This document shows positions 4,850-35,154 of a stretch of DNA of 39,655 bases, piece after piece. The notes under the pieces are model-generated. The model was given only the letters and a program-made list of their open reading frames with translations, was not told the origin of the DNA and did no database searches. Each line of letters begins with the position of its first letter. The stretch's first letter is position 1. Position numbers and translations under genes: made by a program. Source of the stretch: an uncultured Planctomycetia bacterium (GTDB taxonomy: Bacteria > Omnitrophota > Gorgyraeia > Gorgyraeales > Gorgyraeaceae); contig CAZWYD010000001.1 of assembly GCA_964637815.1 (NCBI GenBank), positions 1-39,655 on the forward strand. Reading direction: 5' to 3'.

Positions 4850-4872
4850 TGTCTTTTACATGTATATAATTC

Positions 4873-4901
4873 TTGACACGCAGAAGGCATTTTAATATAA
4901 T
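4873..4901 (+). promoter_or_regulatory. Consensus sigma70-type promoter (TTGACA 4873-4878, 17-nt spacer, TATAAT 4896-4901)
   Basis: Read directly from the sequence: both hexamers match consensus exactly, with optimal 17-nt spacing. It lies in the longest non-coding gap of the window (4850-4932). Confidence 0.7.
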
Positions 4902-4902
4902 A

Positions 4903-4931
4903 ATAGAACGTTCTATAACAGAACGTTCTAT
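4903..4931 (+). promoter_or_regulatory. Two tandem copies of a palindrome (ATAGAACGTTCTAT 4903-4916; ACAGAACGTTCTAT 4918-4931): putative operator pair
   Basis: The perfect 10-bp palindromic core AGAACGTTCT occurs at 4905-4914 and 4920-4929, 15 bp centre to centre. The pair sits between the -10 box and the ATG at 4933. Confidence 0.6.
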
Positions 4932-4932
4932 T

Positions 4933-5547
4933 ATGGTACAGCCTCAAAATAATTTTTTAAAACCTGCCGAACAATTACGCAATCTTCAATTATTAGAAGA
5001 AGTTGCAAAAGATTCTACTGTATCCCAGCGGAAACTTGCTTCCTGTTTAGGAGTAGCATTGGGTGTTACCAATGCCTGCCTTAAAAAAATGATCAGAAGA
5101 GGTCATATCAAAGTAAAAGGCATAAATCATAAAAGGATAGCATATTATCTTACGCCATTAGGGTTTAGTGAAAAAGCCAGCCTTACTTATCATTTCCTCC
5201 AACATACCGTAAATTATTACAAAAACTTAAAGGAAAGCGTATTATCAAAGCTAGATTTAATCTCCAAAGCCGGTATTAAAAAGGTGCTTTTTTACGGTGC
5301 AGGAGAGGTAATGGAGGTAGCTTTAATTTGTTTAAACGAAACAGGCATAGAGCTTGTCGGGATAATAGATGACTCAAAAGATAAACAAGGAAAGAGGATA
5401 TTTGGATATGCTATCCAAGATCCTTCTTTTATAAAATCTTTACATCCCGAGGCTATATTGATCACATCTATTAGATACAGGGATAAGATTTTGGCTGATT
5501 TAAAAAAGACCGAAGAATTGCAAGGCGTCAATTTTTATTCTTTATAA
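4933..5547 (+). CDS. Winged-helix transcriptional regulator fused to a Rossmann-like (PglD-N / C-methyltransferase-C-like) putative nucleotide-sugar-binding domain
   Basis: I prefer the ATG at 4933 (MVQPQNNF...) because the track's TTG at 4873 is the -35 hexamer itself. The HTH segment is VSQRKLASCLGVALGVTNACLKKMIRRGHIKV. The C-terminal half (KKVLFYGAGEVMEVAL...LVGIIDDSKDKQGKRIFGYAI) resembles modules in three enzymes of this window. Confidence 0.7.
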   Translation: MVQPQNNFLKPAEQLRNLQLLEEVAKDSTVSQRKLASCLGVALGVTNACLKKMIRRGHIKVKGINHKRIAYYLTPLGFSEKASLTYHFLQHTVNYYKNLKESVLSKLDLISKAGIKKVLFYGAGEVMEVALICLNETGIELVGIIDDSKDKQGKRIFGYAIQDPSFIKSLHPEAILITSIRYRDKILADLKKTEELQGVNFYSL

Positions 5548-5574
5548 TGGTTTTTAAACGAAAGGATTATTAAA

Positions 5575-6546
5575 ATGCTAAATGGGAAAACAGTTTTAGT
5601 TACAGGTGGCACCGGTTCATTTGGGCATAAGTTTACAGAGATGGTATTAAAGAGATATAAACTCAAAAAACTTATTATATTCAGCAGAGATGAGATGAAA
5701 CAATATGAGATGAGTAAGGTTTTTGATCCAAAGAAACACAAAAACATCAGATTTTTTATAGGAGACGTAAGGGATCCAGAAAGATTGCACAGGGCTTTTA
5801 ACAAGGTAGATATCATAATTCATGCAGCAGCCTTGAAGATAGTGCCTACAGCTGAATATAATCCATTCGAGGCAGTTAAGACAAATGTATTGGGAGCTGA
5901 AAATATTATAAATGTGGCCATAGATAATAATATTAAAAGGGTTATTGCGCTTAGTAGTGATAAAGCTGCCAATCCTATAAATCTTTACGGTGCAACCAAA
6001 CTCTGCGCAGAAAAGATGTTTGTAGCCGCAAACAATTATTCTCCAGCAGGAACAAAGTTTAGTGTAGTGCGATACGGAAATGTGTTTGGTTCCAGAGGAA
6101 GCGTGATCCCGTTTTTTAAAGAATGCAGCAAAAAAGGGTTTATTCCTATAACAGATAAGAGGATGACGCGTTTTTGGATTACCTTGGAACAGGGAGTAGA
6201 TTTTGTATTGAGCTGCTTAAAAGACATGCGCGGAGGAGAGATTTTTATTCCTAAAATACCCAGCATGAAGATAGTCGATTTAGCGAAGGCGATTTGCCCT
6301 GGCTGTAAGCACAAAATAACAGGAATAAGACCAGGGGAAAAATTACATGAGACATTAGTCTCTTCCGATGATGGTATTTACACTTATGAACTTAAAGACA
6401 GATTTATTACTTATTCTAAAGTAGCAGGTTGTAATAATAATGGCAGAAAAGGAAAATACTTGAGTGCTGAATTCAAAAGTTACAGTAGTGATAATAATTC
6501 CGAATGGCTAAATATTAGACAGTTAAAAAAACTAGCGGGATTATAA
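5575..6546 (+). CDS. pseB: UDP-N-acetylglucosamine 4,6-dehydratase (inverting), PseB/FlaA1 type
   Basis: Hallmarks of PseB are present: MLNGKTVLVTGGTGSFGHKF, FFIGDVRD, ALSSDKAANPINLYGATKL, VVRYGNV.GSRGSV.P.F and MTRFWIT. Confidence 0.9.
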   Translation: MLNGKTVLVTGGTGSFGHKFTEMVLKRYKLKKLIIFSRDEMKQYEMSKVFDPKKHKNIRFFIGDVRDPERLHRAFNKVDIIIHAAALKIVPTAEYNPFEAVKTNVLGAENIINVAIDNNIKRVIALSSDKAANPINLYGATKLCAEKMFVAANNYSPAGTKFSVVRYGNVFGSRGSVIPFFKECSKKGFIPITDKRMTRFWITLEQGVDFVLSCLKDMRGGEIFIPKIPSMKIVDLAKAICPGCKHKITGIRPGEKLHETLVSSDDGIYTYELKDRFITYSKVAGCNNNGRKGKYLSAEFKSYSSDNNSEWLNIRQLKKLAGL

Positions 6547-6555
6547 AAGATTAAT

Positions 6556-7734
6556 ATGAAAAATATTCCTTACGGTAAACAGTATATAGACAGTTCAGAC
6601 ATAAAAGAAGTAGTTAATGTTTTGCGATCTGATTGGATAACGCAGGGGTCTAAGGTTGCAGAGTTTGAAGAAAGATTAGCGCGTTATTGTGGCGCAAGAT
6701 ATGCAGTTTGTGTATCAAGCGGAACAGCTGCTTTACATATTGCTTGTCTTGCAGGAGGTATCGAGAAAGGCGACGAAGTTATCACAAGCCCAATAACCTT
6801 TGTTGCTTCCGCGAATTGTATTTTATATTGCGGAGCAAAGCCAGTCTTTGCAGATATTCAAGCGGATACGGCAAACATTGACCCCGAAGAAATTAAGAAG
6901 AAAATAACGAGTAAAACCAAGGCAATAATCCCTGTTCATTTTGCTGGTTTACCTTGTGACATGAAAAGAATTTTTGACATAGCCAAGAAAAATAATCTTA
7001 TAGTAATCGAAGATGCCTGTCATGCCTTAGGAGCAGAATACAGAATTAGGGATAAATGGGCCAAGGTTGGTAATTGTGGTTATTCGGATATGAGCGTGTT
7101 TAGTTTTCATCCAGTTAAGCATATAACCACTGGTGAAGGCGGAGCTATCACCACAAATAATAGAAGGCTGTATGAAAAATTAAAGGCGTTAAGAAGCCAT
7201 GGCATATATAAAGACGCGCGTACAAAAAAACAGGGATCATGGTTTTATGAAATGAGAGATTTAGGGTTTAACTATCGGATAACTGATTTTCAATGTGCAT
7301 TAGGGCTTAGTCAGCTTAGAAAGATAAGTCAATTTATAAGAAAAAGAATATCTATTGCAGGTAACTATAATGGAGCATTTGAAGATATACAGGATTATAT
7401 AACGTTGCCTACGTATTCTAATAGTAATAAGACGCATGCTTGGCATTTGTATCTAGTGCACCTACAATTGGATAGATTAAAATGCTCTAGAAAAAAGATA
7501 TTTTCAGAATTGCGACAAAAAAAGATAGGCGTGCAGGTACATTATATACCTGTTTATAGGCAGCCATTTTATAGAAAGAGAAATTATAGTAAAAAAGGTT
7601 TTAGTCACGCAGAAAAATATTACAGAGACTGTATCAGTTTACCTATTTATGTTGATTTAGATAGCAAGTCTCAGGAATATACGATTTCTTCTGTAAGAAA
7701 AATAATAATAAAATATTCCAAGAAGAGGTATTAA
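6556..7734 (+). CDS. pseC: UDP-4-amino-4,6-dideoxy-N-acetyl-beta-L-altrosamine transaminase (PseC-type DegT family)
   Basis: The start IPYGKQYIDSSDI and the motifs WITQGSKV, SSGTAALH and PLP-lysine FSFHPVKHITTGEGG fit PseC. It lies immediately downstream of pseB. Confidence 0.88.
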   Translation: MKNIPYGKQYIDSSDIKEVVNVLRSDWITQGSKVAEFEERLARYCGARYAVCVSSGTAALHIACLAGGIEKGDEVITSPITFVASANCILYCGAKPVFADIQADTANIDPEEIKKKITSKTKAIIPVHFAGLPCDMKRIFDIAKKNNLIVIEDACHALGAEYRIRDKWAKVGNCGYSDMSVFSFHPVKHITTGEGGAITTNNRRLYEKLKALRSHGIYKDARTKKQGSWFYEMRDLGFNYRITDFQCALGLSQLRKISQFIRKRISIAGNYNGAFEDIQDYITLPTYSNSNKTHAWHLYLVHLQLDRLKCSRKKIFSELRQKKIGVQVHYIPVYRQPFYRKRNYSKKGFSHAEKYYRDCISLPIYVDLDSKSQEYTISSVRKIIIKYSKKRY

Positions 7735-8595
7735 ATGTGTGTTAATTTTGTAGCAGAGGTCTCTAGTAATCATAATCAAGATTTAAAACGCAGCTTAAAA
7801 TTTATTGAGACAGCAGCAGCTATTGGCTGCAGTGCAGTAAAATTTCAACTATTTAAGATAGATAAGCTTTTTGCATCAGAGATAATTGAAAAAAGCAAAG
7901 ATATAAAAGCTAGGAAAAAATGGGAGCTTCCTCTTAAATTTGTACCTATTTTATCTAAAAAATGTCACGAGTTAAATCTGAAATTTTCTTGCACACCTTT
8001 TTATACAGAGGCCGTAAAAGAATTACAACAATGCGTAGATTATTATAAGATTGCATCTTATGAGCTTCTCCACAATGATTTGATTGAGGAGTGTGCTAGG
8101 ACTGGTTTCCCTCTTATTCTATCAACAGGAATGGCTACGTTGGATGAGATTGATTCAGCAATAGAATCATTGAGATCCTTGAAAGTGAAAGATGTTACCT
8201 TGCTTCATTGTGTTTCAAGTTATCCGACGCCTGCTGAACAGTGCAATTTGGCTGCAATTAAGATATTGCGAGAGAGATATAAGTGTAAAGTGGGATGGTC
8301 AGATCATACAGCTTCCAGAGCTGTCATATACAGGGCAGTACATAAATGGGGAGCTACCATGGTTGAGTTTCATATGGACCTGGATGGGAAGGGAGTAGAG
8401 TTTTCAGGTAAACACTGCTGGTTACCCGATGATATCAAAGAGGTGATAGAAAATATAAAAATGGGTATTAAGGGAGACGGAATAGCTAAAAAGGCACCTT
8501 TAGCAAGCGAGATTTCCGAAAGAAATTGGCGAGCTGATCCAATAGATGGCTTGCGACCATTGCGAAAAATTAGAAAAAAGTGGAATTTAATATGA
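7735..8595 (+). CDS. NeuB-family nonulosonate (Pse/Leg/Neu-type) synthase homologue lacking the C-terminal SAF domain
   Basis: VAEVSSNHNQDLKRSLKFIETAAAIGCSAVKFQLF matches the NeuB TIM-barrel start. The protein is only 286 aa and ends soon after the barrel, with no SAF-length tail. Its stop overlaps the next ATG (ATGA at 8592-8595). Confidence 0.78.
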   Translation: MCVNFVAEVSSNHNQDLKRSLKFIETAAAIGCSAVKFQLFKIDKLFASEIIEKSKDIKARKKWELPLKFVPILSKKCHELNLKFSCTPFYTEAVKELQQCVDYYKIASYELLHNDLIEECARTGFPLILSTGMATLDEIDSAIESLRSLKVKDVTLLHCVSSYPTPAEQCNLAAIKILRERYKCKVGWSDHTASRAVIYRAVHKWGATMVEFHMDLDGKGVEFSGKHCWLPDDIKEVIENIKMGIKGDGIAKKAPLASEISERNWRADPIDGLRPLRKIRKKWNLI

Positions 8596-9350
8596 AAATT
8601 GGAGCTATTGTTCAAGCACGTTTGAATTCAAAAAGATTACCAAGAAAGGTTTTATTGCATTTGGCAGGAAAGCCAGCATTATGGCATGTTTTAAATAGAT
8701 TGAAGCATTGTAAAAAATTGGATACGGTTATACTCGCTACATCTACTGATAAAGAAGATAGAAAACTAAAAGATGTTGCTGATTTATTAAATATAAATTC
8801 ATTTTTTGGGAGCATTAATGATGTTCTTTCAAGGTACTATTATGCTGCAAAGGAATATAATCTAGATGTGATAGTTCGCATAACAGGTGATTGTCCACTG
8901 ATTGATCCTTCAATTGTAGATGAAATTGTAGAAAATTATAAAAGAGATCAATATGATTACTATGGACTTTCTGGTGATTTTCCAGATGGCCTAGATGTAA
9001 GCGTCTTTAGTTTTAAAGCGCTAGAGATAGCTTTTAAAGAAGCTAAGCTTCCTTCTCAAAGAGAACATGTTGTCATGTTCTTTGAGAAGAACAACGATAG
9101 ATTCAAGCTTGGTTTTTATGAAAAATTTCAAGATAAAGGAGATTATCGCTGGACGTTAGACGAACCCGAAGACTACGAATTTTTAAAGGCTGTTTTTAAT
9201 GAACTTTATAATGAAGAAAAAGTTTTTAACTATGAGGGTATATTTGCATTATTGGAAAGGAAACCAGAATTAATGAAGATAAATAAGCATATTATAAGAA
9301 ACGAGGGATATCTGAAATCATTAGAAGAAGATAAAAGATCCGTAACTTAG
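8592..9350 (+). CDS. SpsF/PseF-like cytidylyltransferase (CMP-nonulosonate synthetase family)
   Basis: MKIGAIVQARLNSKRLPRKVL and ITGDCPLIDP are typical of SpsF-type cytidylyltransferases. The ATG at 8592 is preferred over the track's GTG at 8580 because of the ATGA coupling. Confidence 0.8.
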   Translation: MKIGAIVQARLNSKRLPRKVLLHLAGKPALWHVLNRLKHCKKLDTVILATSTDKEDRKLKDVADLLNINSFFGSINDVLSRYYYAAKEYNLDVIVRITGDCPLIDPSIVDEIVENYKRDQYDYYGLSGDFPDGLDVSVFSFKALEIAFKEAKLPSQREHVVMFFEKNNDRFKLGFYEKFQDKGDYRWTLDEPEDYEFLKAVFNELYNEEKVFNYEGIFALLERKPELMKINKHIIRNEGYLKSLEEDKRSVT

Positions 9351-9364
9351 CGAAAGAAGGATTT

Positions 9365-10675
9365 ATGAAAGGCCCTGATTTATACAAGAAAGCATTAAAG
9401 TTTATACCCGGAGGTACTCAGTTGTATTCAAAGCGTCCAGAATTATATCTACCAGGATCTTGGCCTACTTATTACAAATCTGCAAAGGGTGCTGAGATTA
9501 CAGATTTGGATGGAAATAGATATATCGATATGAGTATTTTCGCTGTTGGTGCATGTGTCCTAGGATATGCGGATAGGGATGTGGATAAAGCAGTGAAAAA
9601 GGCCATTGATAATGGTTCTAGTTCTACTCTGAATTGTCCCGAAGAAGTAAGACTTGCGGAGTTACTTTGTGAATTGCACCCATGGGCAAAGATGGTACGA
9701 TTTTCAAAAGGAGGAGGAGAAGCAGCATCTATTGCTATTCGTATCGCAAGGGCTTATACAAGCAAAGACAAGATTGCCTTTTGCGGTTATCATGGATGGT
9801 GCGATTGGTATTTAGCAGCAAATTTAAGTAGCAAAAAGGCATTGGATGGTCAATTAATGCCGGGCCTTCCTTCTTTGGGAGTACCAAGGGGTTTAAAAGG
9901 GTCAGCTTTTCCATTTAGTTATGGTAGAGTTGATGAATTAGAGGGTATTATAAAAAGACACGGCAAAAAACTTGCGGCTATTATTATGGAGCCCGCAAGG
10001 GATGTGCCAGACAGGAATTTTTTGAAAGATGTCAGGAAGTTAGCTGATTCGATAGGAGCGGTGTTAATATTTGATGAGATTACATCCGGGTTCAGAATGA
10101 ATACAGGAGGGATTCATTTAACCTTAGGGGTTTATCCTGATATGGCTGTATTCGCGAAATCTATGGCAAATGGCTATCCCATAGGGGCAATAATAGGTAA
10201 GAAAAAGATTATGCAGGTGGCTCAATCCACTTTTATTAGTAGCACAAATTGGACAGAGCGTACAGGGTTTGCAGCGTCTATTGCTACAATAAAAAAGTTT
10301 AGAGAGAAAAATGTGGCAACCCATCTTGTAAAAATCGGAAAAAAAATTCAGGATGTGTGGAAGAAGACAGCAGAAGAAACAGGGCTAAAAATTAATGTGT
10401 CAGGGATTCCGCCATTAAGTCATTTTTCATTTGAATATGATAATGAACTTGCGATAGCTACATTCTTTACTCAGGAGATGCTTAAAAGAAGGTTTCTGGC
10501 ATGGACTCAATTCAAATCGTCATATGCCCATAGGGATATACATATAAATAAGTATTCTGATGCAGTCTATGAGACATTTCGCAAAATCAAGAAGGCTATA
10601 GAAAAGAACTATATTGAAAAACGTTTAAAAGACTCGATAGCAAAAAAAGGATTTTATAGGCTTGTTAAAAATTAA
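9365..10675 (+). CDS. Class III aminotransferase, glutamate-1-semialdehyde 2,1-aminomutase-like
   Basis: IPGGTQLYSKRP, DLDGNRYIDM, FDEITSGFR and the PLP-lysine context VFAKSMANGYPIGAIIG fit this class. A GAAGGA RBS lies upstream. Confidence 0.82.
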   Translation: MKGPDLYKKALKFIPGGTQLYSKRPELYLPGSWPTYYKSAKGAEITDLDGNRYIDMSIFAVGACVLGYADRDVDKAVKKAIDNGSSSTLNCPEEVRLAELLCELHPWAKMVRFSKGGGEAASIAIRIARAYTSKDKIAFCGYHGWCDWYLAANLSSKKALDGQLMPGLPSLGVPRGLKGSAFPFSYGRVDELEGIIKRHGKKLAAIIMEPARDVPDRNFLKDVRKLADSIGAVLIFDEITSGFRMNTGGIHLTLGVYPDMAVFAKSMANGYPIGAIIGKKKIMQVAQSTFISSTNWTERTGFAASIATIKKFREKNVATHLVKIGKKIQDVWKKTAEETGLKINVSGIPPLSHFSFEYDNELAIATFFTQEMLKRRFLAWTQFKSSYAHRDIHINKYSDAVYETFRKIKKAIEKNYIEKRLKDSIAKKGFYRLVKN

Positions 10676-10676
10676 A

Positions 10677-11600
10677 ATGGAATATCGAGAATTAGGTAAA
10701 ACAGGACTAAAGGTTAGCATGATTGGGTTTGGCTCAGCTGGGTTAGTGATGGATTATGGAGTAAATGTCCCAGGAGAGAAAGCTAGGTTAGATAAAAAGC
10801 ATGTGCAAAGTTTAATCGGCAAGGCACTTGATAGTGGCATTAATTTGTTTGATACGGCGCCTTCTTATGGAGAAAGTGAAAAACTATTAGGTTCTAATAT
10901 TCGCTCAAGAGATTGTTATATTGCGACAAAGGTGAATATATCCAGAGGGGACGAAGATTGCGTTAAGTCTATTAGGACATCAATAGAGAATAGTCTAAAG
11001 AATTTAAAAAGAGAATATCTAGATATTCTCCAAATTCACAACGCGACAGTTGAGGATATAAGACGTTTTGAGATCATGGATATCTTAGTAAGACTGAAAA
11101 AAGAGGGCTTGATTAGATTTATAGGTGCCTCAGTATATGAGCCAGAGAATGCTACGGCAGTGATCAGGGCAGGATATTTTGATGTATTGCAGATTGCATA
11201 TAATCTTCTTGATCAAAGGATGGGCGAAAGCGTATTAGATAATGCAAGAGCTCAAGGTGTTGGGATTTTAGGCCGTTCAGTATACCTGAAAGGCGTATTA
11301 ACAGAAAGAGTGAAATATTTTCCTGAAAACTGCTCAGTGTTAAAGAAAGCAGCTGAAGATATAAAAACGCGGATGGAATTAAGTTCATGGAATGAGTTAT
11401 CTCATTTTGCTATAAGATTTGCTTTGTCAAATCCTCGTATTGGTTCTGTGCTTTTAGGTGTTCGCAGCAACATTGAATTAAGCCTTGCAATTGCTGCTAT
11501 TGAGGCAGGAGTGTTAGCCGATCATGAACTAGAAACATCTTATTTTCTTAGAATGGATGATAGATTTTGGCTCAATCCTTCTAATTGGGGCATTGATTGA
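10677..11600 (+). CDS. Aldo/keto reductase
   Basis: MEYRELGKTGLKVSMIGFG, FDTAPSYGESEKLLG, LDILQIHN and IGASVYE are classic AKR motifs. I prefer the ATG at 10677, just after the upstream stop, over the track's TTG at 10662. Confidence 0.85.
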   Translation: MEYRELGKTGLKVSMIGFGSAGLVMDYGVNVPGEKARLDKKHVQSLIGKALDSGINLFDTAPSYGESEKLLGSNIRSRDCYIATKVNISRGDEDCVKSIRTSIENSLKNLKREYLDILQIHNATVEDIRRFEIMDILVRLKKEGLIRFIGASVYEPENATAVIRAGYFDVLQIAYNLLDQRMGESVLDNARAQGVGILGRSVYLKGVLTERVKYFPENCSVLKKAAEDIKTRMELSSWNELSHFAIRFALSNPRIGSVLLGVRSNIELSLAIAAIEAGVLADHELETSYFLRMDDRFWLNPSNWGID

Positions 11601-11602
11601 TT

Positions 11603-12634
11603 ATGAAAATAGTATTTCGCTGTGATGCATCTTTTGATATTGGATTAGGTCATTTGGTAAGATCTTTGGCCTTAATAGAAGAACTTGTCTCGCGTAATCA
11701 TGTTATCCTAGCAACAATCGAAGATGGAGCAAAGCCATATATTAGCAAGAGGGTTAATGAATTTGATACATTTTTTAAAGAAAAAAATGAAGGAGAAGAG
11801 GAGTTTTTAAGGCGCATAAAGGTTATTTTGAAGCCTAACGTTGTTGTTATAGATAAAAAATATCCCTATAGCTCAGAATTTCTGAATCAGTTAAAAGGAG
11901 AGAATATCAAGATTATAATGATAGACAATATCTGTGAAGGACTTTGTGCTTCAGATGAGATCATATTTCCTACAGCGCATCTTGATAAGACCCTGTTAGA
12001 AAAATATTTATCACAGGAGAAGATTGATAGTGTGAAGACAGGGTTTGAATATATAATCTTACGCAAAGAGGTCTTGGCATTAAAAGATAAAACCCAGCCT
12101 GGTTTACATACATCGTCGAGAGTTGTCGTGACTACTGGTGGTACTGATCCTGAAGGCGTTTTACTCAAGTTGATTCCTTGGATAAAGGACATGGCTTTAG
12201 ATGCTAGAATCTTGTTATTACTTGGTCAGTCGTTCAGATTTAGAAATGAACTTAAGCACTTGGTAACTGATTTGCCAAACAATATTCACCTTATGTCATA
12301 TTCTTTAAAGGAGGTTATAAAAGGAGATATAGCAATCTGTACTTTTGGTGTGAGTGTATATGAAATGATTTACCTTGGCATACCAACTATATGTATCTCA
12401 CACAATATCGAAAATGCAGATGGTGCGAGGATGTTAAAGAAAAGATGCGGTGTTATAGAAAATCTTGGTTATGTCGAGGATATTAGTGTTCAGAGTTTAC
12501 ATTCAGCAGTCATAAAATTGTTATCTGACAGAATGCTTTGTCGCAATATTTTCGAGAAGTCCCGTAATTTAATAGATGGTAGAGGCATAAAGAGGATTAG
12601 TCAGATAATTACAAGGGCTAGATTATATGTCTAA
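11603..12634 (+). CDS. pseG: PseG/SpsG-like UDP-sugar hydrolase (GT-B, GT28 C-terminal-like)
   Basis: KIVFRCDASFDIGLGHLVRSLALIEEL is the typical PseG N-terminus, and VVVTTGGTDPEG lies at mid-protein. The ATG at 11603 is preferred over the TTG at 11597. Confidence 0.7.
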   Translation: MKIVFRCDASFDIGLGHLVRSLALIEELVSRNHVILATIEDGAKPYISKRVNEFDTFFKEKNEGEEEFLRRIKVILKPNVVVIDKKYPYSSEFLNQLKGENIKIIMIDNICEGLCASDEIIFPTAHLDKTLLEKYLSQEKIDSVKTGFEYIILRKEVLALKDKTQPGLHTSSRVVVTTGGTDPEGVLLKLIPWIKDMALDARILLLLGQSFRFRNELKHLVTDLPNNIHLMSYSLKEVIKGDIAICTFGVSVYEMIYLGIPTICISHNIENADGARMLKKRCGVIENLGYVEDISVQSLHSAVIKLLSDRMLCRNIFEKSRNLIDGRGIKRISQIITRARLYV

Positions 12635-13565
12635 AACTAAAGCTTTTGTCTATCCACCTACAGGCTTGGAACATTATGGTAGCTTAGTAGATTCTATAGA
12701 TGGCTTCGACGTAATTGAATGCGAGTGTTGTGGATTTAAGCATATTATTCCTATCCCGACGCCACAGAAATTAGATGATTTATACAAGGATAGATTTTAT
12801 TCAACCGAGAAGCCTAGATATTTTAAGGAAGCAGAAGAGGATATAGAATGGTGGGAGATGACATACCGCAATTATTACAAATTATTTGAAAGTCATCTTT
12901 CAAAAAACAGCAGGAGATTGCTTGAAGTTGGGTCAGGCCCTGGGTATTTTTTGAAATGCGGCAAAGAATTAGGATGGTCTGTGGTTGGATTTGAACCATC
13001 AAAACAGGCGTATGAGTATTCTCAGAGATTTGATGTAGAAGTTATAAACAAATTTTTTGACAAAAGAGTCACAACTGATCATGACAAGTTTGATGTTGTA
13101 TATATGAATATGGTTATTGAGCATCTGCCAGATCCATTGTCGTTGATCAAGGCTGTAAAAGAAGCATTAAGGCCTGATGGAATTATTTGCATTATTGCAC
13201 CCAATGATTATAATCCTTTGCAAAAGATTGCCAGGAATGATTTATGTTGCGAATCATGGTGGATAGCCCCACCGCAACATATAAATTATTTTGATTTTGA
13301 ATCAATTGCAAGATTTCTTGGAAAGGCTGATTTCGATATTGTAGAGTCTATGGCAACTTTTCCCATGGAGTTCTTTTTATTGAGTGGGGACAATTATTTG
13401 AGCAATAATGAAGTAGGTAGAGAATGTCATTCCAGACGCAAGATGTTCGAGGTAAATATGTATAAAAATGAAGCGGAATATTTGAACAAGGTCTATAGAG
13501 ATTTGGCTTCTAATGGTATAGGAAGAGAATTTCTGATTATCGGAAGGCTGCGTAATAATGGATAA
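12627..13565 (+). CDS. Class I SAM-dependent methyltransferase
   Basis: It carries SAM motif I (LLEVGSGPGYFL), the acidic loop VVGFEPS and post-motif VVYMNMVIEHLPDP...LRPDGIICIIAPN. A CxCC cluster sits near the N-terminus. It overlaps the upstream gene by 8 nt. Confidence 0.82.
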   Translation: MSKTKAFVYPPTGLEHYGSLVDSIDGFDVIECECCGFKHIIPIPTPQKLDDLYKDRFYSTEKPRYFKEAEEDIEWWEMTYRNYYKLFESHLSKNSRRLLEVGSGPGYFLKCGKELGWSVVGFEPSKQAYEYSQRFDVEVINKFFDKRVTTDHDKFDVVYMNMVIEHLPDPLSLIKAVKEALRPDGIICIIAPNDYNPLQKIARNDLCCESWWIAPPQHINYFDFESIARFLGKADFDIVESMATFPMEFFLLSGDNYLSNNEVGRECHSRRKMFEVNMYKNEAEYLNKVYRDLASNGIGREFLIIGRLRNNG

Positions 13566-13590
13566 TAGATTTTAGAATTGGAGCGAAGGA

Positions 13591-15153: not shown

Positions 15154-15173
15154 TCCAAAGGAGGAAACAAGTA

Positions 15174-16382: not shown

Positions 16383-16397
16383 TAAGGGTGACCTCAA

Positions 16398-17630
16398 ATG
16401 AGAAAAAATGTTTTGATTGTCGGCGCAGGAATAAATCAATTGCCTTTGATAAAATTAGCAAAACGTAAAGGGCTGTATTTTGCGGTAGCGGATTTAAATC
16501 CCGATGCAATAGGGGCAAAATATGCGGATCGTTTTTATAATATCAGTACTAGCGATATTCAGGGGATGGTGCAACTGGCAAAGAAATTGGATGAAGAGAT
16601 AGGACTTGATGGAGTCACAAGTATGGCAGCGGAAGTTTCAAAGACTATCTCTGAGGTGGCAGAAGAGCTGGGATTACCTGCTATTAGCAATGAAACTGCA
16701 GAGGTCACGACTAATAAGTTAAAAAGGTACGAGCGGTTACGCAAATGTGGCATCTCTATCCCGAGATTCTATCCTGTCAAGAACAGGAAAGAAATTATGT
16801 CAGCTATAAAAGATCTGGGCTTACCAGTTGTTATAAAGCCGGTTGATAGCGCTGGCGCAAGAGGCGTCCAGAAGATATTTGATGTGGCAATGATTGATGT
16901 AGCGTTGAGGGAGATTAAGAAATATTCAAAAGCAGACGTGTTTATTATAGAAGAATTTTTACAAGGGACTGAGCATAGTTCAGAATCGATAGTTATTGAT
17001 AACGAGATATACACTACCGGGTTCTCAGACCGTAACTATGACAAGAAAGAGATAAACCCGCCTTATTTTTTAGAAGACGGAGATAGCTTGCCGACAGCCT
17101 TGCCGGATAACGTATATGAAGATACTCTGCAATTGGTTAAGGAAGCCATAAAGGCGCTTGGTATAAATTTTGGCCCTGCGAAAGGCGATATCTTTATTGA
17201 TAAAAAAGGCCCTAAGGTTTTGGAGATGGCTTCAAGGTTAAGCGGAGATTATTTTTGCTGGGAGACAGTACCTTTGCATAATGGGACGGATATTTTAAAC
17301 GTTTTGCTTGATATAGCAGTGAGCAACAAACCAGATGTAAGTTTATTGAGTCCGAAATTCAATCGAGGCGTTGCGTTACGTTATTTTTTTCCAAAAAAAT
17401 CAGGGAGAATAAAGTCAATAAAAGGCGTAGATGAGGTGAAGCATATGGAAGGGGTTTATTTCTTTAAATGGGAGCCTGCATATGAAAACATCGATGTTGG
17501 AAAAGAAATCAGAATCCCTACATGCCATGCTGAAAGAGTGGGCTGTGTTATGACGCATGCTGATACAAGGGAAAAGGCTGTCAGGATAGCAGAAAAGGCA
17601 GTTAGTGCAATAACCATAGAGGTGGAGTAA
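16398..17630 (+). CDS. ATP-grasp carboxylate-amine ligase
   Basis: VLIVGAGINQLPLI, the grasp core LGLPVVIKPVDSAGARGV, FIIEEFLQGTEHS and KVLEMASRLSGD resemble PurK or L-amino-acid-ligase type ATP-grasp enzymes. Confidence 0.8.
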   Translation: MRKNVLIVGAGINQLPLIKLAKRKGLYFAVADLNPDAIGAKYADRFYNISTSDIQGMVQLAKKLDEEIGLDGVTSMAAEVSKTISEVAEELGLPAISNETAEVTTNKLKRYERLRKCGISIPRFYPVKNRKEIMSAIKDLGLPVVIKPVDSAGARGVQKIFDVAMIDVALREIKKYSKADVFIIEEFLQGTEHSSESIVIDNEIYTTGFSDRNYDKKEINPPYFLEDGDSLPTALPDNVYEDTLQLVKEAIKALGINFGPAKGDIFIDKKGPKVLEMASRLSGDYFCWETVPLHNGTDILNVLLDIAVSNKPDVSLLSPKFNRGVALRYFFPKKSGRIKSIKGVDEVKHMEGVYFFKWEPAYENIDVGKEIRIPTCHAERVGCVMTHADTREKAVRIAEKAVSAITIEVE

Positions 17631-17635
17631 ATAAT

Positions 17636-18592: not shown

Positions 18593-18594
18593 AT

Positions 18595-19968: not shown

Positions 19969-19971
19969 GAC

Positions 19972-20736
19972 ATGACAAGGAATCCGCAGTTAAAGATTAG
20001 AGAAAGATATGATGGTGCAGGGATGTTGAAAGATATCCGATTCAGGCACGTCTTGCTCAAGAAAGACATGAACTTTAAATCCGATAGCTACGAGACAGCT
20101 ATAGTGATATTAAAGGGAAAGTGTCGTATTTATGTGCGTGGCATTGAATACCGCTTGAAACGTAAGGATGTGTTTACAGAGAAGCCAAGCGCAGTCTATG
20201 TCTCTGTTCAGGATGCAGTTAAAATAAAAAGGGACTCGGAATTTTGCGAAATAGCAATATGTCAAACTCTCTCTGCTGAAAAGAAAAAGACTTCTCTTAT
20301 ATTAAAGGAAAAAGTTAATAAAGAGGAGCGCGGTAAACTCCCTTATAAAAGATATGTTTTTGATATAATCAGTGAACAGTTTAATGCCGGCACCATGCTC
20401 ATTGGCGAGACAATTAATTTTTCTGGAAATTGGTCGAGCTATCCTCCACATAAACATGATGCAAACAGTCTTCCCTATGAAACAAAGATGGAGGAATTGT
20501 ATTTCTTTAAGCTTTGGCCAGATAACGGCTTTGGATTCCAACGGTTATATACAAAAGATAGGTCGATTGACAAGACATTATTGATAGAAAATAATGATAT
20601 CGTGTTGATCCCTAAAGGTTATCACCCTGTATGTGTAATGCCGGGTTATAAATTATATTATCTTTGGATTCTTGCAGGCAAAAATCGGATACTGAAACCC
20701 AACGAGGACAGTGCATATGCATGGACTAAGACATAA
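19972..20736 (+). CDS. IolB/KduI-like cupin (5-deoxy-glucuronate isomerase family)
   Basis: NWSSYPPHKHDANSLPYETKMEELYFF and the C-terminal IPKGYHPV match the IolB signature region by eye. It starts 3 nt after the aminotransferase stop. Confidence 0.72.
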   Translation: MTRNPQLKIRERYDGAGMLKDIRFRHVLLKKDMNFKSDSYETAIVILKGKCRIYVRGIEYRLKRKDVFTEKPSAVYVSVQDAVKIKRDSEFCEIAICQTLSAEKKKTSLILKEKVNKEERGKLPYKRYVFDIISEQFNAGTMLIGETINFSGNWSSYPPHKHDANSLPYETKMEELYFFKLWPDNGFGFQRLYTKDRSIDKTLLIENNDIVLIPKGYHPVCVMPGYKLYYLWILAGKNRILKPNEDSAYAWTKT

Positions 20737-20755
20737 ACAGGAAAGCACAGGCAAT

Positions 20756-22786
20756 ATGATGTATTTATATTCTGTTTTTCACTTGAACCTAATGTACTCT
20801 TCTATAAAGGAAGAGGATTGGCCAAAGGTTATAAAGATATGTTACTGGCCCATATTGGATATTATAAAATCCTTGGAAATTCCCCTGGGGATAGAAATTT
20901 CCGGACATTCGTTAGAAATGATTAAAAAGATTGATTCGAGATGGATAAGTTCATTCAAAAAATTATTGAAAGCCGGAAAAACTGAACTTATAGGAAGCGG
21001 TTATATGCAGATAATAGGACCCTTGATCCCGAGAGAAATTAATGCATATAACCATAAATTTGGATTGGATAGTTATAGAAAAATACTGGATTGTGTTCCG
21101 GAGATTGCATTAGTTAATGAGCAGGCTTATTCCTGCGGTTTAATAGATGGCTATAAAAAGGCAGGATACAAGGCTGTTATAATGGAGTGGGATAATCCTT
21201 TTCGTTTTCATCCGGAATGGGATAGCAGATGGAGGTATTATCCCCAGATGGCTAGCGATGATTGCGGAAACTGTATCCCTGTAATTTGGAACAACGCAAT
21301 CTTGTTTCAGAAATTTCAAAGATATGCACATGGGGAGATTGAGCTTGAAGAATATATGTCTTACCTAAAAAGCCATTTTCTTGGAGAAGAAACAGTACTT
21401 TCATTATACGGGAATGATGCTGAGACTTTTGATTTCAGGCCGGGTCGTTTTCACACAGAATCAGATATCCATAAAGGCGGAGAATGGAATAGAATCAAGG
21501 TATTACTTAAGGGATTAAAAAAAGATTCCAAATTTAGTTTTATTTTGCCATCCGGGGCATTGAAGTTTACAAGGCAGCCTTTGGCAAATAACAGGATTCA
21601 TTTAGAGTCATGCGCTCAACCTATACCGGTTAAAAAACAGGAAAAGTATAATATTGCAAGATGGGCGGTGACTGGCAGGAACGATACTATAATCAATACC
21701 AAATGCTACCGTCTCTATGATTATTTAAAGGATTGCAATAAGAGCGGAAAAAATAAAGCAGAAACAGAAGGCTTATGGAGGAAATTGTGTTATTTATGGA
21801 GCAGTGATTTCAGGACTCATATAGAAAAAGCCCGCTGGAGAGTGTTTAATAAAGATTTAAATTATACGCTAAAAAAAGCAAAAAAGATTTACGAAAGCAC
21901 GATTACGAAAAATGAAAAGTTCAAACCAAACAATCAAATAATTCCAAGTTCGATACCTGAAGTTAGGCGCATAAAAACAAAAATAGAGATAGAAAATAAA
22001 AAAAATGAACTGATTTTAAATTGCAATAAAGGCCTTACAATAACTTCTTTGATATTTAAGGACATAAGTCCATGTCCTTTAATAGGGACGATTTCTCATG
22101 GTTATTATGATGATATAAGTCTAGGGGCGGATTATTTTACAGGTCATACGATTATAGAGGGAGCTGATTTAAAAAAGTTTACTGATTTAGCAAGTGTAGT
22201 ACCAGACATATTGGATGGTTTTAGCAGTCAAAAGCCGTATATTCAGGTAAGAGGCACTATTAAATTGGGCTGTGGGACAATAAAGAAGGAGATAAATTTT
22301 TATTTATTAGAATCCAAGATAGACATACGCTATATTTTTAATCTTAATTTCGGAGTCCCTGTTTCTTTAAGGACAGGCATCGTCACATTGTTACCTGAAG
22401 CCTTTGATAAAAATACGCTGTATTACAAGACTGTAAATGGCGGTACGCATAAAGAAACCTTTAGAATTGGCGGGACTGCCTCAATCAATTTCGGTGCTCC
22501 GGTTAGCAGGATGGTTACGGCCAGCCATTGTTTAGGAGCTACGGACGGTTGGTTAGAGATGGGTGACAAAGATAAGAATATCAGAATTTATTCGGATAAG
22601 GCTAAGATGTATAGCGTGCCAATGTTAGAATATAAGACTGTTTCAAATTCATATTTTTTAAGATGCCTTAATTCTTTAAGAGAAATAGATGAAACCTCAA
22701 TAGAGGGAAAAGGTTTTAAGGGCGAAATAAAATTTTCTATTATAGCAAGTAAGAATAAACAAAAAGAGAAACGGTGTAGCACCTAA
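20756..22786 (+). CDS. GH57-like glycoside hydrolase-fold protein with large uncharacterised C-terminal half
   Basis: N-terminal FHLNLMYSS, GKTELIGSGYMQIIGPLIP, ALVNEQAYS (candidate nucleophile Glu, nt 21119-21121) and YGNDAETFDF (candidate acid/base Asp, nt 21416-21418) resemble conserved GH57 regions. The ATG at 20756 follows the iolB-like stop, and I prefer it to the track's overlapping GTG at 20711. Confidence 0.6.
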   Translation: MMYLYSVFHLNLMYSSIKEEDWPKVIKICYWPILDIIKSLEIPLGIEISGHSLEMIKKIDSRWISSFKKLLKAGKTELIGSGYMQIIGPLIPREINAYNHKFGLDSYRKILDCVPEIALVNEQAYSCGLIDGYKKAGYKAVIMEWDNPFRFHPEWDSRWRYYPQMASDDCGNCIPVIWNNAILFQKFQRYAHGEIELEEYMSYLKSHFLGEETVLSLYGNDAETFDFRPGRFHTESDIHKGGEWNRIKVLLKGLKKDSKFSFILPSGALKFTRQPLANNRIHLESCAQPIPVKKQEKYNIARWAVTGRNDTIINTKCYRLYDYLKDCNKSGKNKAETEGLWRKLCYLWSSDFRTHIEKARWRVFNKDLNYTLKKAKKIYESTITKNEKFKPNNQIIPSSIPEVRRIKTKIEIENKKNELILNCNKGLTITSLIFKDISPCPLIGTISHGYYDDISLGADYFTGHTIIEGADLKKFTDLASVVPDILDGFSSQKPYIQVRGTIKLGCGTIKKEINFYLLESKIDIRYIFNLNFGVPVSLRTGIVTLLPEAFDKNTLYYKTVNGGTHKETFRIGGTASINFGAPVSRMVTASHCLGATDGWLEMGDKDKNIRIYSDKAKMYSVPMLEYKTVSNSYFLRCLNSLREIDETSIEGKGFKGEIKFSIIASKNKQKEKRCST

Positions 22787-34439: not shown

Positions 34440-34444
34440 ATAAA

Positions 34445-35119: not shown

Positions 35120-35154
35120 AGAAGAAGACATAGTTGTAAAGAAAGAGGTTTTTT

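What the first reader, a model, noticed from the sequence alone, without database searches (positions are those of the whole stretch)
5575..12634. Non-canonical pseudaminic-acid-like module: no PseH, SAF-less synthase, and an inserted GSA-type aminotransferase plus aldo/keto reductase
PseB, PseC, a NeuB-family synthase, an SpsF/PseF-like cytidylyltransferase and a PseG-like hydrolase are all present, so a CMP-nonulosonate is almost certainly made. Three things deviate from the textbook six-enzyme Pse pathway. First, no small GNAT PseH is present in the module. Second, the synthase is only 286 aa and lacks the SAF domain, which in NeuB-type synthases reaches into the partner subunit's active site and contacts the substrate N-acyl group. 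Third, a class III aminotransferase and an AKR are wedged between the cytidylyltransferase and PseG-like genes. GSA-like class III aminotransferases are known to aminate sugar aldehydes, for example at the 6' position in aminoglycoside pathways. An additional amino or reduced position, or a non-acetyl N-acyl group supplied by the downstream island, is therefore plausible. The product may not be Pse5Ac7Ac.
Basis: partly seen in the sequence, partly recalled or inferred. Interest (0 to 1): 0.6.

Follow-up and report, generated by a model that had tools for sequence, protein, structure and literature searches.

The report
PseH-less pseudaminic-type sugar operon
These seven genes are one copy of a widespread, horizontally spread operon for a sialic-acid-like nine-carbon surface sugar; it lacks the usual acetyltransferase, uses a shortened synthase, and carries an untested aminotransferase/reductase pair tied to the activating enzyme.

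Summary
Seven tightly packed genes (5575-12634) encode PseB and PseC (both above the curated cut-offs), a 286-aa NeuB-domain synthase without SAF, an SpsF-type cytidylyltransferase, a GSA-like class III aminotransferase, an aldo/keto reductase and a PseG-like GT-B protein. No PseH was found.

The three "deviations" are two independent features.
- **SAF-less synthase.** It forms its own deep clade. In 14 related loci it never sits with a PseH-like GNAT (0/14). It sits with an ATP-grasp ligase in 12/14 and a GH57-like gene in 9/14. This resembles the Shewanella oneidensis sfm system, whose flagellin sugar carries one acetyl plus a 236-264 Da group.
- **Aminotransferase/reductase pair.** It is a separate module that is very often fused to the cytidylyltransferase. 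It also occurs beside ordinary PseI/PseH clusters and Leg-type clusters, in at least 585 species genomes.

My reading is a CMP-activated Pse-type sugar with a non-acetyl N7. The pair probably converts a hydroxyl to an amine, but this step is inferred. Aeromonas, Vibrio and Legionella papers note these genes without assigning a function. This scan has already met the same cassette in several other genomes. Interest is moderate.

The parts
5575..6546 (+). PseB, the inverting UDP-GlcNAc 4,6-dehydratase
   Evidence: TIGR03589 scores 493 bits against a cut-off of 407.75. PF02719 E=1e-100.
6556..7734 (+). PseC, a DegT-type aminotransferase that makes UDP-4-amino-4,6-dideoxy-beta-L-AltNAc
   Evidence: TIGR03588 scores 515 bits against a cut-off of 423.5.
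7735..8595 (+). SAF-less NeuB-family nonulosonate synthase, 286 aa
   Evidence: Only PF03102 matches. The residues aligned with N. meningitidis NeuB E25, K53, Q55, T110, F112, K129, S132, E134, H215 and H236 are kept. The protein sits in a separate clade of 16 rows with SH-aLRT 100. Its relatives are 281-308 aa.
8592..9350 (+). SpsF-type CTP_transf_3 cytidylyltransferase, the presumed CMP-nonulosonate synthetase. The listed ORF starts at GTG 8580; the likely ATG is at 8592.
   Evidence: PF02348 E=9e-33. The best solved relative is 6oew, E=7e-45. Relatives are fused to NeuB, PseG, class III aminotransferase and AKR domains.
9365..10675 (+). GSA-aminomutase-like class III aminotransferase of unknown substrate
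   Evidence: PF00202. PRK06209 scores 260 bits and hemL 199 bits, both below cut-off. The PLP lysine K265 and D237 are invariant in the family. Relatives are 60-75% identical across phyla. At least 585 species genomes carry one.
10677..11600 (+). Aldo/keto reductase, partner of the aminotransferase. The listed ORF starts at TTG 10662; the likely ATG is at 10677.
   Evidence: PF00248 E=1e-37. The nearest solved relatives are L-galactose dehydrogenases. AKR is present in 11 of 14 related loci, and AKR-SpsF fusions exist.
11603..12634 (+). PseG-like GT-B protein, the presumed UDP-sugar hydrolase. The listed ORF starts at TTG 11597.
   Evidence: TIGR03590 scores 116 bits, below the 153.6 cut-off, but covers positions 1-268 of 280. 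The GxGHxxR motif is invariant. The AF2 model has pLDDT 90. It aligns to C. jejuni PseG 3hbn at Z 24.7, rmsd 3.2 A, 274 of 282 residues, 20% identity.
12627..13565 (+). Class I SAM methyltransferase that travels with the cassette
   Evidence: PF13489. A homologue is present in 12 of 14 related loci.
16398..17630 (+). ATP-grasp (LAL_C2) carboxylate-amine ligase, the candidate replacement for PseH
   Evidence: PF18603 and PF02655. Present within 10 kb in 12 of 14 loci with the SAF-less synthase, against 2 of 20 loci with a long synthase. SfmE of Shewanella is of this type (PMC3765264).
17636..18592 (+). Fmt/ArnA-like formyltransferase, a second candidate N-acylating enzyme that is specific to this window
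   Evidence: PF00551 plus PF02911. fmt scores 171 bits (below cut-off) and ArnA 162 bits. My single-seed HMM found none in the 14 related loci.
20711..22786 (+). GH57-like protein that co-occurs with the cassette; its role is unknown
   Evidence: PF03065. Present in 9 of 14 related loci against 1 of 20.

Best explanation
The seven genes are one copy of a conserved, horizontally spread operon that makes a CMP-activated nonulosonic acid of the pseudaminic type whose N7 is not acetylated by PseH.

**Steps supported by curated family models**
- PseB and PseC convert UDP-GlcNAc to UDP-4-amino-4,6-dideoxy-beta-L-AltNAc.

**Steps inferred from homology, fold and gene fusions**
- The PseG-like GT-B protein removes UDP.
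- The SAF-less NeuB-family enzyme condenses the free sugar with PEP.
- The SpsF-type cytidylyltransferase makes the CMP-sugar.

**Inferred from co-occurrence and the Shewanella sfm precedent**
- The amine that PseH would acetylate is instead acylated by the downstream ATP-grasp ligase with a purpose-built acid, and/or formylated.
- The loss of the SAF cap goes with this different substituent.

**Most speculative step**
- The class III aminotransferase and the AKR are a separate module coupled to the cytidylyltransferase.
- They most likely oxidise one hydroxyl of the nonulosonate and transaminate the ketone with glutamate, around the CMP-activation step. My guess is C8, next to the terminal methyl. 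This would give a third amino group.
- The logic matches that of KdnB/KdnA in 8-amino-Kdo synthesis.
For: **Core pathway**
- The PseB and PseC equivalog models are passed.
- The synthase keeps the metal-binding and catalytic residues of N. meningitidis NeuB.
- The PseG-like protein keeps the GxGHxxR motif, and its model overlays C. jejuni PseG at Z 24.7.
- The cytidylyltransferase is fused to the SAF-less synthase in L026, L049 and L051 and to the PseG-like protein in L006. This marks them as steps of one pathway.
- B. subtilis SpsF is genetically the CMP-Leg step (PMC7439481).

**Spread of the cassette**
- The same gene order occurs in Methanoregula, Planctomycetes, Acidobacteriota, Nitrospirota and Syntrophorhabdus.
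- None of the 40 relatives searched carries a close homologue of the synthase; the best match is 39% identical.

**Missing PseH**
- In loci with at least 5 kb of flank, those with the SAF-less synthase have a PseH-like GNAT in 0/14, an ATP-grasp ligase in 12/14 and GH57 in 9/14.
- Loci with a long synthase have these in 8/20, 2/20 and 1/20.
- PseH above its cut-off was found in only 2 of 26 genomes, both in long-synthase loci.
- S. oneidensis has PseB and PseC, a 290-aa NeuB-only SfmA, an ATP-grasp SfmE and no clear PseH, PseG, PseI or PseF orthologues. Its flagellin sugar is a 274 Da mono-acetyl Pse plus 236-264 Da (PMC3765264).

**Aminotransferase/reductase module**
- Of the 120 best long relatives of the cytidylyltransferase, about 86 are fusions to a class III aminotransferase and 15 to an AKR. 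One is a triple fusion and one is fused to a Gfo/Idh/MocA oxidoreductase.
- The oxidoreductase partner varies between AKR, Gfo/Idh/MocA and SDR, while the aminotransferase stays constant.
- A glutamate dehydrogenase follows the aminotransferase in L036.
- The PLP lysine is conserved.
- The nearest named families aminate aldehydes: GSA-AM, GntE and the C-6' aminotransferases.
- The nearest solved AKRs are sugar dehydrogenases that run oxidatively.
Against: - No enzyme of this cassette has been assayed. No nonulosonic acid with a third amino group turned up in the paper library.
- Some relatives of the aminotransferase stand alone among unrelated genes, as in L055, or lie in non-glycan contexts, as in L036. 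The family may therefore act on a smaller metabolite.
- The pair is dispensable for the PseH-less pathway: Geoalkalibacter L006 lacks both genes.
- The synthase and the PseG-like protein fall below the curated PseI and PseG cut-offs. Both substrate and stereochemistry could therefore differ.
- A NeuD/PglB/VioB-type acetyltransferase (34445-35119, 200 bits against a cut-off of 161) and a formyltransferase lie in the same window and could acylate N7.
- The co-occurrence counts come from loci chosen by the aminotransferase and from related cassettes, so the Fisher p-values overstate independence.
- I could not check by sequence that Shewanella SfmA belongs to this synthase clade.
Confidence: 0.55

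Rival explanations
1. The module makes ordinary CMP-Pse5Ac7Ac. An unrelated acetyltransferase does PseH's job: the NeuD/PglB/VioB-type enzyme at 34445, or one on an unassembled contig. The aminotransferase and AKR serve something else.
For: A NeuD-family acetyltransferase passes its cut-off in the same operon-like run. The MAG is 73.8% complete, so PseH could be missing from the assembly. PseB and PseC are canonical.
Against: None of the 14 related loci has a PseH-like GNAT or a PglD-like gene within 10 kb. The NeuD-type gene sits 22 kb downstream, beside its own Gfo/DegT module. The synthase is outside the PseI clade. The Shewanella relative carries only one acetyl (PMC3765264).
Confidence: 0.12
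2. The aminotransferase and AKR do not touch the nine-carbon core. They build or trim the side-chain acid or amine that the ATP-grasp ligase attaches, or they make another small amino alcohol.
For: Relatives occur away from nonulosonate genes, next to glutamate dehydrogenase, Gfo/Idh/MocA enzymes and amidohydrolases. Acid-building genes vary from locus to locus around the ligase. The earlier follow-up on 16398-22786 reads that block as an acid-tailoring cassette.
Against: This does not explain why the aminotransferase and AKR are so often fused to the cytidylyltransferase. It also does not explain why they occur in clusters without any ATP-grasp ligase (18 of 20 long-synthase loci).
Confidence: 0.18
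3. The pair changes the core without adding nitrogen. One route is oxidation and reduction giving an epimer (as in 4-epi or 8-epi forms). Another is a PLP/PMP-dependent deoxygenation with the reductase, as in the E1/E3 logic of 3,6-dideoxyhexoses.
For: An oxidoreductase always accompanies the PLP enzyme. Class III enzymes such as GenB2, GenB3 and GenB4 epimerise or deoxygenate aminoglycosides (my own knowledge). C4 and C8 epimers of these sugars exist in nature (my own knowledge).
Against: Epimerisation by oxidation and reduction needs no PLP enzyme. The adjacent glutamate dehydrogenase in L036 points to real amino-group transfer.
Confidence: 0.1
4. The short NeuB-family protein is not the nonulosonate synthase. 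It condenses PEP with a different aldehyde to build a keto-deoxy acid side chain.
For: It scores far below both the NeuB and PseI cut-offs and lacks SAF. The genome has a second, ordinary NeuB-type synthase on contig C82.
Against: It is the only NeuB-family gene in each related locus and always sits after PseB and PseC. It is fused to the cytidylyltransferase in three loci. The C82 synthase belongs to a separate Leg-type cluster. Deleting Shewanella sfmA abolishes the whole modification (PMC3765264).
Confidence: 0.05

Closest known systems
Shewanella oneidensis MR-1 flagellin modification genes: pseB/pseC, the oversized cytidylyltransferase SO_3269 and sfmABCDE (PMC3765264; bioRxiv 10.1101/2023.12.03.569772)
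   Same: Both have PseB and PseC plus a NeuB-domain-only synthase of about 290 aa. Both lack clear PseH, PseG, PseI and PseF orthologues. Both have an ATP-grasp carboxylate-amine ligase and SAM methyltransferases nearby. The Shewanella product is a Pse-like sugar with one acetyl and a large extra group.
   Different: The Shewanella acid-building genes (a TPP enzyme and an SDR) are replaced here by other genes: a formyltransferase, a second aminotransferase and an IolB-like gene. The target there is flagellin, through Maf proteins. Here the cassette lies in a Wzx-type polysaccharide locus. The Shewanella papers I read mention no aminotransferase/AKR pair. I could not compare the sequences directly.
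Canonical CMP-Pse5Ac7Ac pathway PseB-PseC-PseH-PseG-PseI-PseF (Campylobacter jejuni, Helicobacter pylori)
   Same: The first two enzymes are the same. There is a PseG-fold protein with the conserved His motif. PEP condensation is by a NeuB-family barrel, followed by CMP activation.
   Different: There is no PseH. The synthase lacks SAF and lies outside the PseI clade. The cytidylyltransferase is SpsF-type, not PseF-type. There are two extra enzymes.
Aeromonas group I flagellin glycosylation islands (PMC7874193), the Vibrio B9-25K2 nab cluster (PMC7371886) and the Legionella pneumophila serogroup 6/12 O-antigen clusters (PMC3694923)
   Same: An aldo/keto reductase and/or a class III (GSA-like) aminotransferase is interleaved with pseC, the cytidylyltransferase and pseG. 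In Vibrio the SpsF-like cytidylyltransferase is fused to an AKR.
   Different: Those clusters are described with a pseI and often a PseH or PseG-PseH. None of these papers assigns a function. I did not confirm homology to this window's genes by sequence.
KdnB/KdnA of Shewanella, which make 8-amino-3,8-dideoxy-D-manno-octulosonic acid before CMP activation by KdsB (my own knowledge)
   Same: The logic is the same: a dehydrogenase plus a PLP aminotransferase turn a hydroxyl of an ulosonic acid into an amine, and a CTP_transf_3 enzyme then activates the product.
   Different: The enzyme families differ, and there the alcohol is primary. This is an analogy of mechanism only; membership was not tested.
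Bacillus subtilis SpsC, SpsD, SpsE, SpsF, SpsG and SpsM legionaminic acid pathway (PMC7439481)
   Same: It uses UDP-linked intermediates, an SpsF-type cytidylyltransferase and an SpsG (PseG-like) protein.
   Different: It has the acetyltransferase SpsD and a SAF-bearing SpsE, and it makes Leg. It has no aminotransferase/AKR pair.

Membership tests
Canonical CMP-pseudaminic acid pathway | PseB, the inverting 4,6-dehydratase | tested here: met
   TIGR03589 scores 493 bits against a cut-off of 407.75.
Canonical CMP-pseudaminic acid pathway | PseC aminotransferase | tested here: met
   TIGR03588 scores 515 bits against a cut-off of 423.5.
Canonical CMP-pseudaminic acid pathway | PseH, the GNAT N-acetyltransferase | tested here: not met
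   TIGR03585 gives no match in the assembly, which is 73.8% complete. No GNAT was found among the window's ORFs. None of 14 related loci has one.
Canonical CMP-pseudaminic acid pathway | PseG, the UDP-sugar hydrolase | tested here: inconclusive
   TIGR03590 scores 116 bits, below the 153.55 cut-off. However, the alignment is full-length, the GxGHxxR motif is invariant, and the model matches 3hbn at Z 24.7 over 274 of 282 residues. MurG scores as high, so hydrolase and transferase cannot be told apart.
Canonical CMP-pseudaminic acid pathway | PseI, a NeuB barrel with a SAF domain that belongs to the PseI equivalog | tested here: not met
   TIGR03586 scores 177 bits against a cut-off of 340 and there is no SAF. 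The protein sits in a clade separate from sequences that pass the PseI model.
Canonical CMP-pseudaminic acid pathway | PseF-type cytidylyltransferase | tested here: not met
   TIGR03584 scores 21.5 bits against a cut-off of 205.7. The protein is CTP_transf_3 of the SpsF type.
Shewanella sfm-type PseH-less nonulosonate system | NeuB-domain-only synthase of about 290 aa together with PseB and PseC and no PseH | tested here: met
   compared with the description of SfmA in PMC3765264. Direct sequence comparison with SfmA was not possible.
Shewanella sfm-type PseH-less nonulosonate system | ATP-grasp carboxylate-amine ligase in the same gene group | tested here: met
   16398-17630 matches PF18603 and PF02655. 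Present in 12 of 14 related loci.
Shewanella sfm-type PseH-less nonulosonate system | Maf-type transferase with flagellin as the target | tested here: not met
   No Maf-type or flagellar family appeared among the Pfam matches for the window. It holds SLBB exporter, Wzx, GT1, GT2 and Glyphos_transf genes instead.
Glutamate-1-semialdehyde 2,1-aminomutase (HemL) | Passes the HemL equivalog model and serves haem synthesis | tested here: not met
   TIGR00713 scores 199 bits against a cut-off of 527. A better HemL-like gene lies on contig C43. The context here is a glycan operon.
Dehydrogenase/aminotransferase tailoring of ulosonic acids (KdnB/KdnA-like) | Oxidation of a hydroxyl of the free or CMP-bound acid, followed by transamination | not testable with these tools
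   Only gene fusions and context bear on this. It needs an enzyme assay.

The most novel reading that the evidence does not exclude
The cytidylyltransferase/aminotransferase/oxidoreductase unit installs a third amino group on the nine-carbon acid, around the CMP-activation step. The product would be, for example, an 8-amino-8-deoxy pseudaminic-type sugar. That would make this and hundreds of related clusters producers of a class of triamino nonulosonic acids that has not been described. Here the sugar would additionally carry a non-acetyl N7 substituent.
Probability: 0.27. Interest if true: 0.75.

Novelty: new variant of a known kind. Interest (0 to 1): 0.45.

Why it matters
Nonulosonic acids decorate flagella, capsules and S-layers. 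They shape recognition by phages and by the immune system.

This cassette shows that much of the environmental diversity of these sugars rests on two building blocks that have never been assayed.
- One is a SAF-less synthase that works without PseH.
- The other is an aminotransferase/oxidoreductase pair welded to the activating enzyme in at least 585 species genomes of bacteria and archaea.

Working out what the pair does would assign a function to a very large protein family that some sources label 'glutamate-1-semialdehyde aminomutase'. It could also reveal a new class of sialic-acid-like sugars. For this window alone, the result is one more member of that cassette. The scan has already met the cassette several times.

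Tried and rejected
- **Truncated or frameshifted synthase.** Rejected. The next gene overlaps its stop, and the 120 best relatives are 281-308 aa with a NeuB domain only.
- **The aminotransferase is HemL.** Rejected.
- **PseH elsewhere in the genome.** Not found, but the MAG is incomplete.
- **Sequence search of solved structures with the PseG-like protein.** It gave nothing at E 0.01. Foldseek's first 50 rows did not list PseG. The wider VIA second look did, at rank 5.
- **Literature search for 'triamino' plus 'nonulosonic'.** No papers. Searches combining GSA aminotransferase, AKR and pseudaminic acid gave only annotation-level mentions.
- **The 2026 Clostridium Pse paper and the SugarBase preprint.** They say nothing on these two genes.
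- **The careful IQ-TREE run.** It did not finish within the time limit, so the quick tree with SH-aLRT support is reported. The duplicate loci L007 and L011, and ORFs scoring under 60 bits on my NeuB HMM, were left out of the tree.
- **Apparent 544-548 aa 'synthase' ORFs in L031 and L037.** These proved to be artefacts of my ORF caller in GC-rich DNA, not fusions.
- **The 403 Da glycan of Aeromonas hydrophila AH-1 as evidence for a third nitrogen.** Dropped. By my own arithmetic the mass equally fits a glutamyl or other N-containing substituent, and I could not establish to which island subgroup the strain belongs.
- **Sequence check of Shewanella SO_3261-SO_3271 and the Aeromonas genes.** I could not fetch them to check homology directly.

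Full report
**What is in the window**

The window is one long run of + strand genes with even composition (GC 0.32-0.41). It is a surface-polysaccharide locus. It holds an SLBB exporter, a Wzx-type flippase, glycosyltransferases, three B12/radical-SAM enzymes and several sugar-nucleotide modules.

The stretch 5575-12634 holds seven genes that are packed almost without gaps. With the likely ATG starts, the spacings run from -8 to 14 nt. No convincing terminator lies inside.

Family matches are as follows.
- PseB and PseC pass the curated equivalog cut-offs, at 493 and 515 bits.
- The third protein (286 aa) matches only the NeuB barrel. It has no SAF and scores about equally, and far below cut-off, on the NeuB and PseI models (180 and 177 bits).
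- The fourth is a CTP_transf_3 enzyme that is not PseF-like (21.5 bits). Its best solved relative is the cytidylyltransferase 6oew.
- The fifth is a class III aminotransferase nearest to GSA aminomutases, below every cut-off.
- The sixth is an aldo/keto reductase.
- The seventh matches PseG over its full length but below cut-off (116 against 153.6 bits).

PseH was not found anywhere in the assembly, which is a 1.33 Mb MAG at 73.8% completeness. The observation therefore stands as written.

**The parts look functional**

- *Synthase.* It keeps the residues aligned with N. meningitidis NeuB E25, K53, Q55, T110, F112, K129, S132, E134, H215 and H236.
- *PseG-like protein.* The family has an invariant GxGHxxR motif near the N-terminus. 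From memory, this holds the catalytic histidine of C. jejuni PseG. An AlphaFold model (pLDDT 90) overlays C. jejuni PseG at Z 24.7, rmsd 3.2 A, 274 of 282 residues and 20% identity. MurG scores similarly, as expected for this fold.
- *Aminotransferase.* It keeps the PLP lysine and the aspartate. It is not the cell's HemL: a better HemL-like gene lies on contig C43.

**The module is a recurrent cassette, not a one-off**

The synthase has thousands of relatives. The best 120 are all 281-308 aa and NeuB-only, at about 60% identity, from Geoalkalibacter, Desulfocicer, Methanoregula and Syntrophomonadaceae. The aminotransferase is even more conserved, at 60-75% identity across phyla and domains.

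The same seven genes in the same order occur on a Methanoregula contig. They also occur, with small permutations, in Planctomycetes, Thermoplasmata and Syntrophorhabdus.

None of the 40 relatives of this organism has a close homologue of the synthase; the best is 39% identical. The cassette therefore moved in horizontally.

**Two independent features**

I annotated the 80 best loci with BLAST and with HMMs built from the hits. Three contexts emerge.

| Context | Content |
|---|---|
| Type A (this window) | PseB, PseC, SAF-less synthase (at least 50% identical), SpsF-type enzyme, aminotransferase, usually AKR, PseG-like protein, methyltransferase |
| Type B | The same aminotransferase and cytidylyltransferase, but with a roughly 350-aa synthase |
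| Type C (mostly Alphaproteobacteria) | The aminotransferase behind an SDR, next to a PglD-like acetyltransferase and a NeuB/LegI-type synthase |

Representatives of the type B synthase pass the PseI model at 448-498 bits. The synthase sampled from type C (L056) passes the NeuB model.

Counts in loci with at least 5 kb of flank on both sides:

| Gene nearby | Type A | Type B | Fisher p |
|---|---|---|---|
| PseH-like GNAT | 0/14 | 8/20 | 0.011 |
| ATP-grasp ligase | 12/14 | 2/20 | 1e-5 |
| GH57-like gene | 9/14 | 1/20 | - |

These p-values overstate independence, because the loci are related and were chosen by the aminotransferase. PseH above its curated cut-off was found in 2 of 26 genomes, both inside type B loci.

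In a quick ML tree, the SAF-less synthases form one clade of 16 rows (SH-aLRT 100, stem length 1.9). This clade is apart from the PseI clade and from the NeuB/LegI clade. The latter holds the fragment of this genome's second synthase on contig C82.

The absence of PseH and the loss of SAF thus go together, and they go with an ATP-grasp ligase. The aminotransferase/AKR pair is a different, more general add-on.

**The PseH-less half has a studied relative**

S. oneidensis MR-1 has pseB and pseC. It has no clear PseH, PseG, PseI or PseF orthologues. It has a 290-aa NeuB-domain-only SfmA, followed by a TPP enzyme, an SDR, a methyltransferase and the ATP-grasp SfmE. Deletions abolish or reduce flagellin modification.

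The glycan is a 274 Da Pse-like acid with a single acetyl, plus a 236-264 Da nitrogen-free moiety (PMC3765264). Its cytidylyltransferase SO_3269 is noted as much larger than usual (bioRxiv 10.1101/2023.12.03.569772). That fits the SpsF-PseG fusion I see in Geoalkalibacter.

This supports reading the window's cassette as a maker of a Pse-type acid whose N7 carries something other than acetyl. The ATP-grasp ligase at 16398 would attach it, and/or the Fmt/ArnA-like formyltransferase at 17636 would formylate N7. CMP-nonulosonates with free and formylated amines have been detected in other organisms (bioRxiv 10.64898/2026.04.20.719630).

That the missing SAF cap makes room for a different substituent is my inference. 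The role of SAF in substrate binding is described in PMC8208679. That paper also reports SAF-less NeuBs as common in environmental bacteria.

**The aminotransferase/reductase half**

Among the 120 best long relatives of the cytidylyltransferase, the fusion partners are as follows.
- About 86 are fused to a class III aminotransferase.
- 15 are fused to an AKR.
- One carries all three domains (982 aa).
- 6 are fused to NeuB.
- Single cases are fused to a Gfo/Idh/MocA oxidoreductase, a PseG-like domain, an ATP-grasp domain or GNATs.

In the loci, the oxidoreductase next to the pair is an AKR, a Gfo/Idh/MocA enzyme or an SDR, while the aminotransferase is constant. In a Vermiphilus contig the aminotransferase is followed directly by glutamate dehydrogenase and two Gfo/Idh/MocA genes. 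The aminotransferase tree follows the cassette types. The nearest solved AKRs are L-galactose dehydrogenases, which run oxidatively on sugars.

All this fits a dehydrogenase/transaminase pair that turns a hydroxyl into an amine on the substrate or product of the cytidylyltransferase. That is the logic of KdnB/KdnA for 8-amino-Kdo, with FrbH as a precedent for PLP chemistry on CMP-bound substrates (both from my own knowledge). I guess C8, because the ketone there would be a methyl ketone.

This step is inferred only, and there are points against it.
- No triamino nonulosonic acid turned up in the library.
- Some relatives of the aminotransferase stand among unrelated genes.
- The pair is dispensable for the PseH-less pathway.

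**What was already known**

- A Vibrio cluster has an SpsF-AKR fusion (PMC7371886).
- L. pneumophila serogroups 6 and 12 have PseG, a GSA-aminomutase-like gene and a cytidylyltransferase side by side (PMC3694923).
- B. subtilis SpsF is genetically the CMP-activation step for legionaminic acid (PMC7439481).
- This scan has met the same cassette in other genomes, and earlier follow-ups reached similar readings.

**Verdict**

This is one more member of a widespread, biochemically untested variant of the pseudaminic acid pathway.

The useful additions here are:
- the separation of the three "deviations" into two modules;
- the counts linking the SAF-less synthase to the lack of PseH and to the ATP-grasp ligase;
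- the extent of the fusions that tie the aminotransferase and reductase to the cytidylyltransferase.

Noticed in passing
Own genome, contig C82 (locus L004:1-5221): This is a second, separate nonulosonate cluster of the legionaminic type. It holds a LegC-family aminotransferase, two unassigned ORFs, a NeuC-type hydrolysing 2-epimerase (472 bits), another ORF, and a NeuB/LegI-type synthase cut off by the contig end. The organism probably makes two different nine-carbon acids.
   Followed up: partly
window 32971-36309: A Gfo/Idh/MocA enzyme (UDP-GlcNAc 3-dehydrogenase-like), a short hexapeptide acetyltransferase, a NeuD/PglB/VioB-family acetyltransferase (200 bits, above cut-off) and a DegT aminotransferase lie together. 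They look like a separate diacetamido-sugar module.
   Followed up: partly
window 19972-20736: An IolB-type 5-deoxy-glucuronate isomerase passes its equivalog cut-off (231 bits against 205) inside a glycan operon. It lies between a second class III aminotransferase and the GH57-like gene.
   Followed up: no
L047, L052, L058, L075, L088 (type B loci): PseC is fused behind an RmlD-like reductase domain in ORFs of 704-732 aa. My HMM found no PseG-like gene in L052 or L088; L047 also lacks one but is a short contig, and L058 and L075 do have one. This may be a further variant in which a fused reductase accompanies PseC.
   Followed up: no
L091:8557-13654: This Zixiibacteriota Pse locus carries the aminotransferase/AKR pair and three PseH-like GNAT genes, two of them above the PseH cut-off. 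The canonical pathway needs only one N-acetylation by PseH after PseC. The extra copies would fit an extra amine to cap, but this is anecdotal.
   Followed up: no
L036:9923-12555 (Vermiphilus sp.): A 57%-identical relative of the aminotransferase lies outside any nonulosonate cluster. It is followed directly by glutamate dehydrogenase and surrounded by amidohydrolases, a URO-D-like protein, Gfo/Idh/MocA enzymes and an SDR.
   Followed up: partly
window 4873-4901: This is the only 12-of-12 sigma-70 consensus match in 4700-17000 (TTGACA, 17 nt, TATAAT). It lies just upstream of the small ORF that precedes pseB. It may drive the whole run.
   Followed up: no
Literature: Aeromonas hydrophila AH-1 (PMC4691044): The single flagellin sugar of this strain is 403 Da. 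By the nitrogen rule (my own arithmetic), the odd nominal mass implies an odd number of nitrogens. It would be worth checking whether the strain's island carries the aminotransferase/AKR pair.
   Followed up: no
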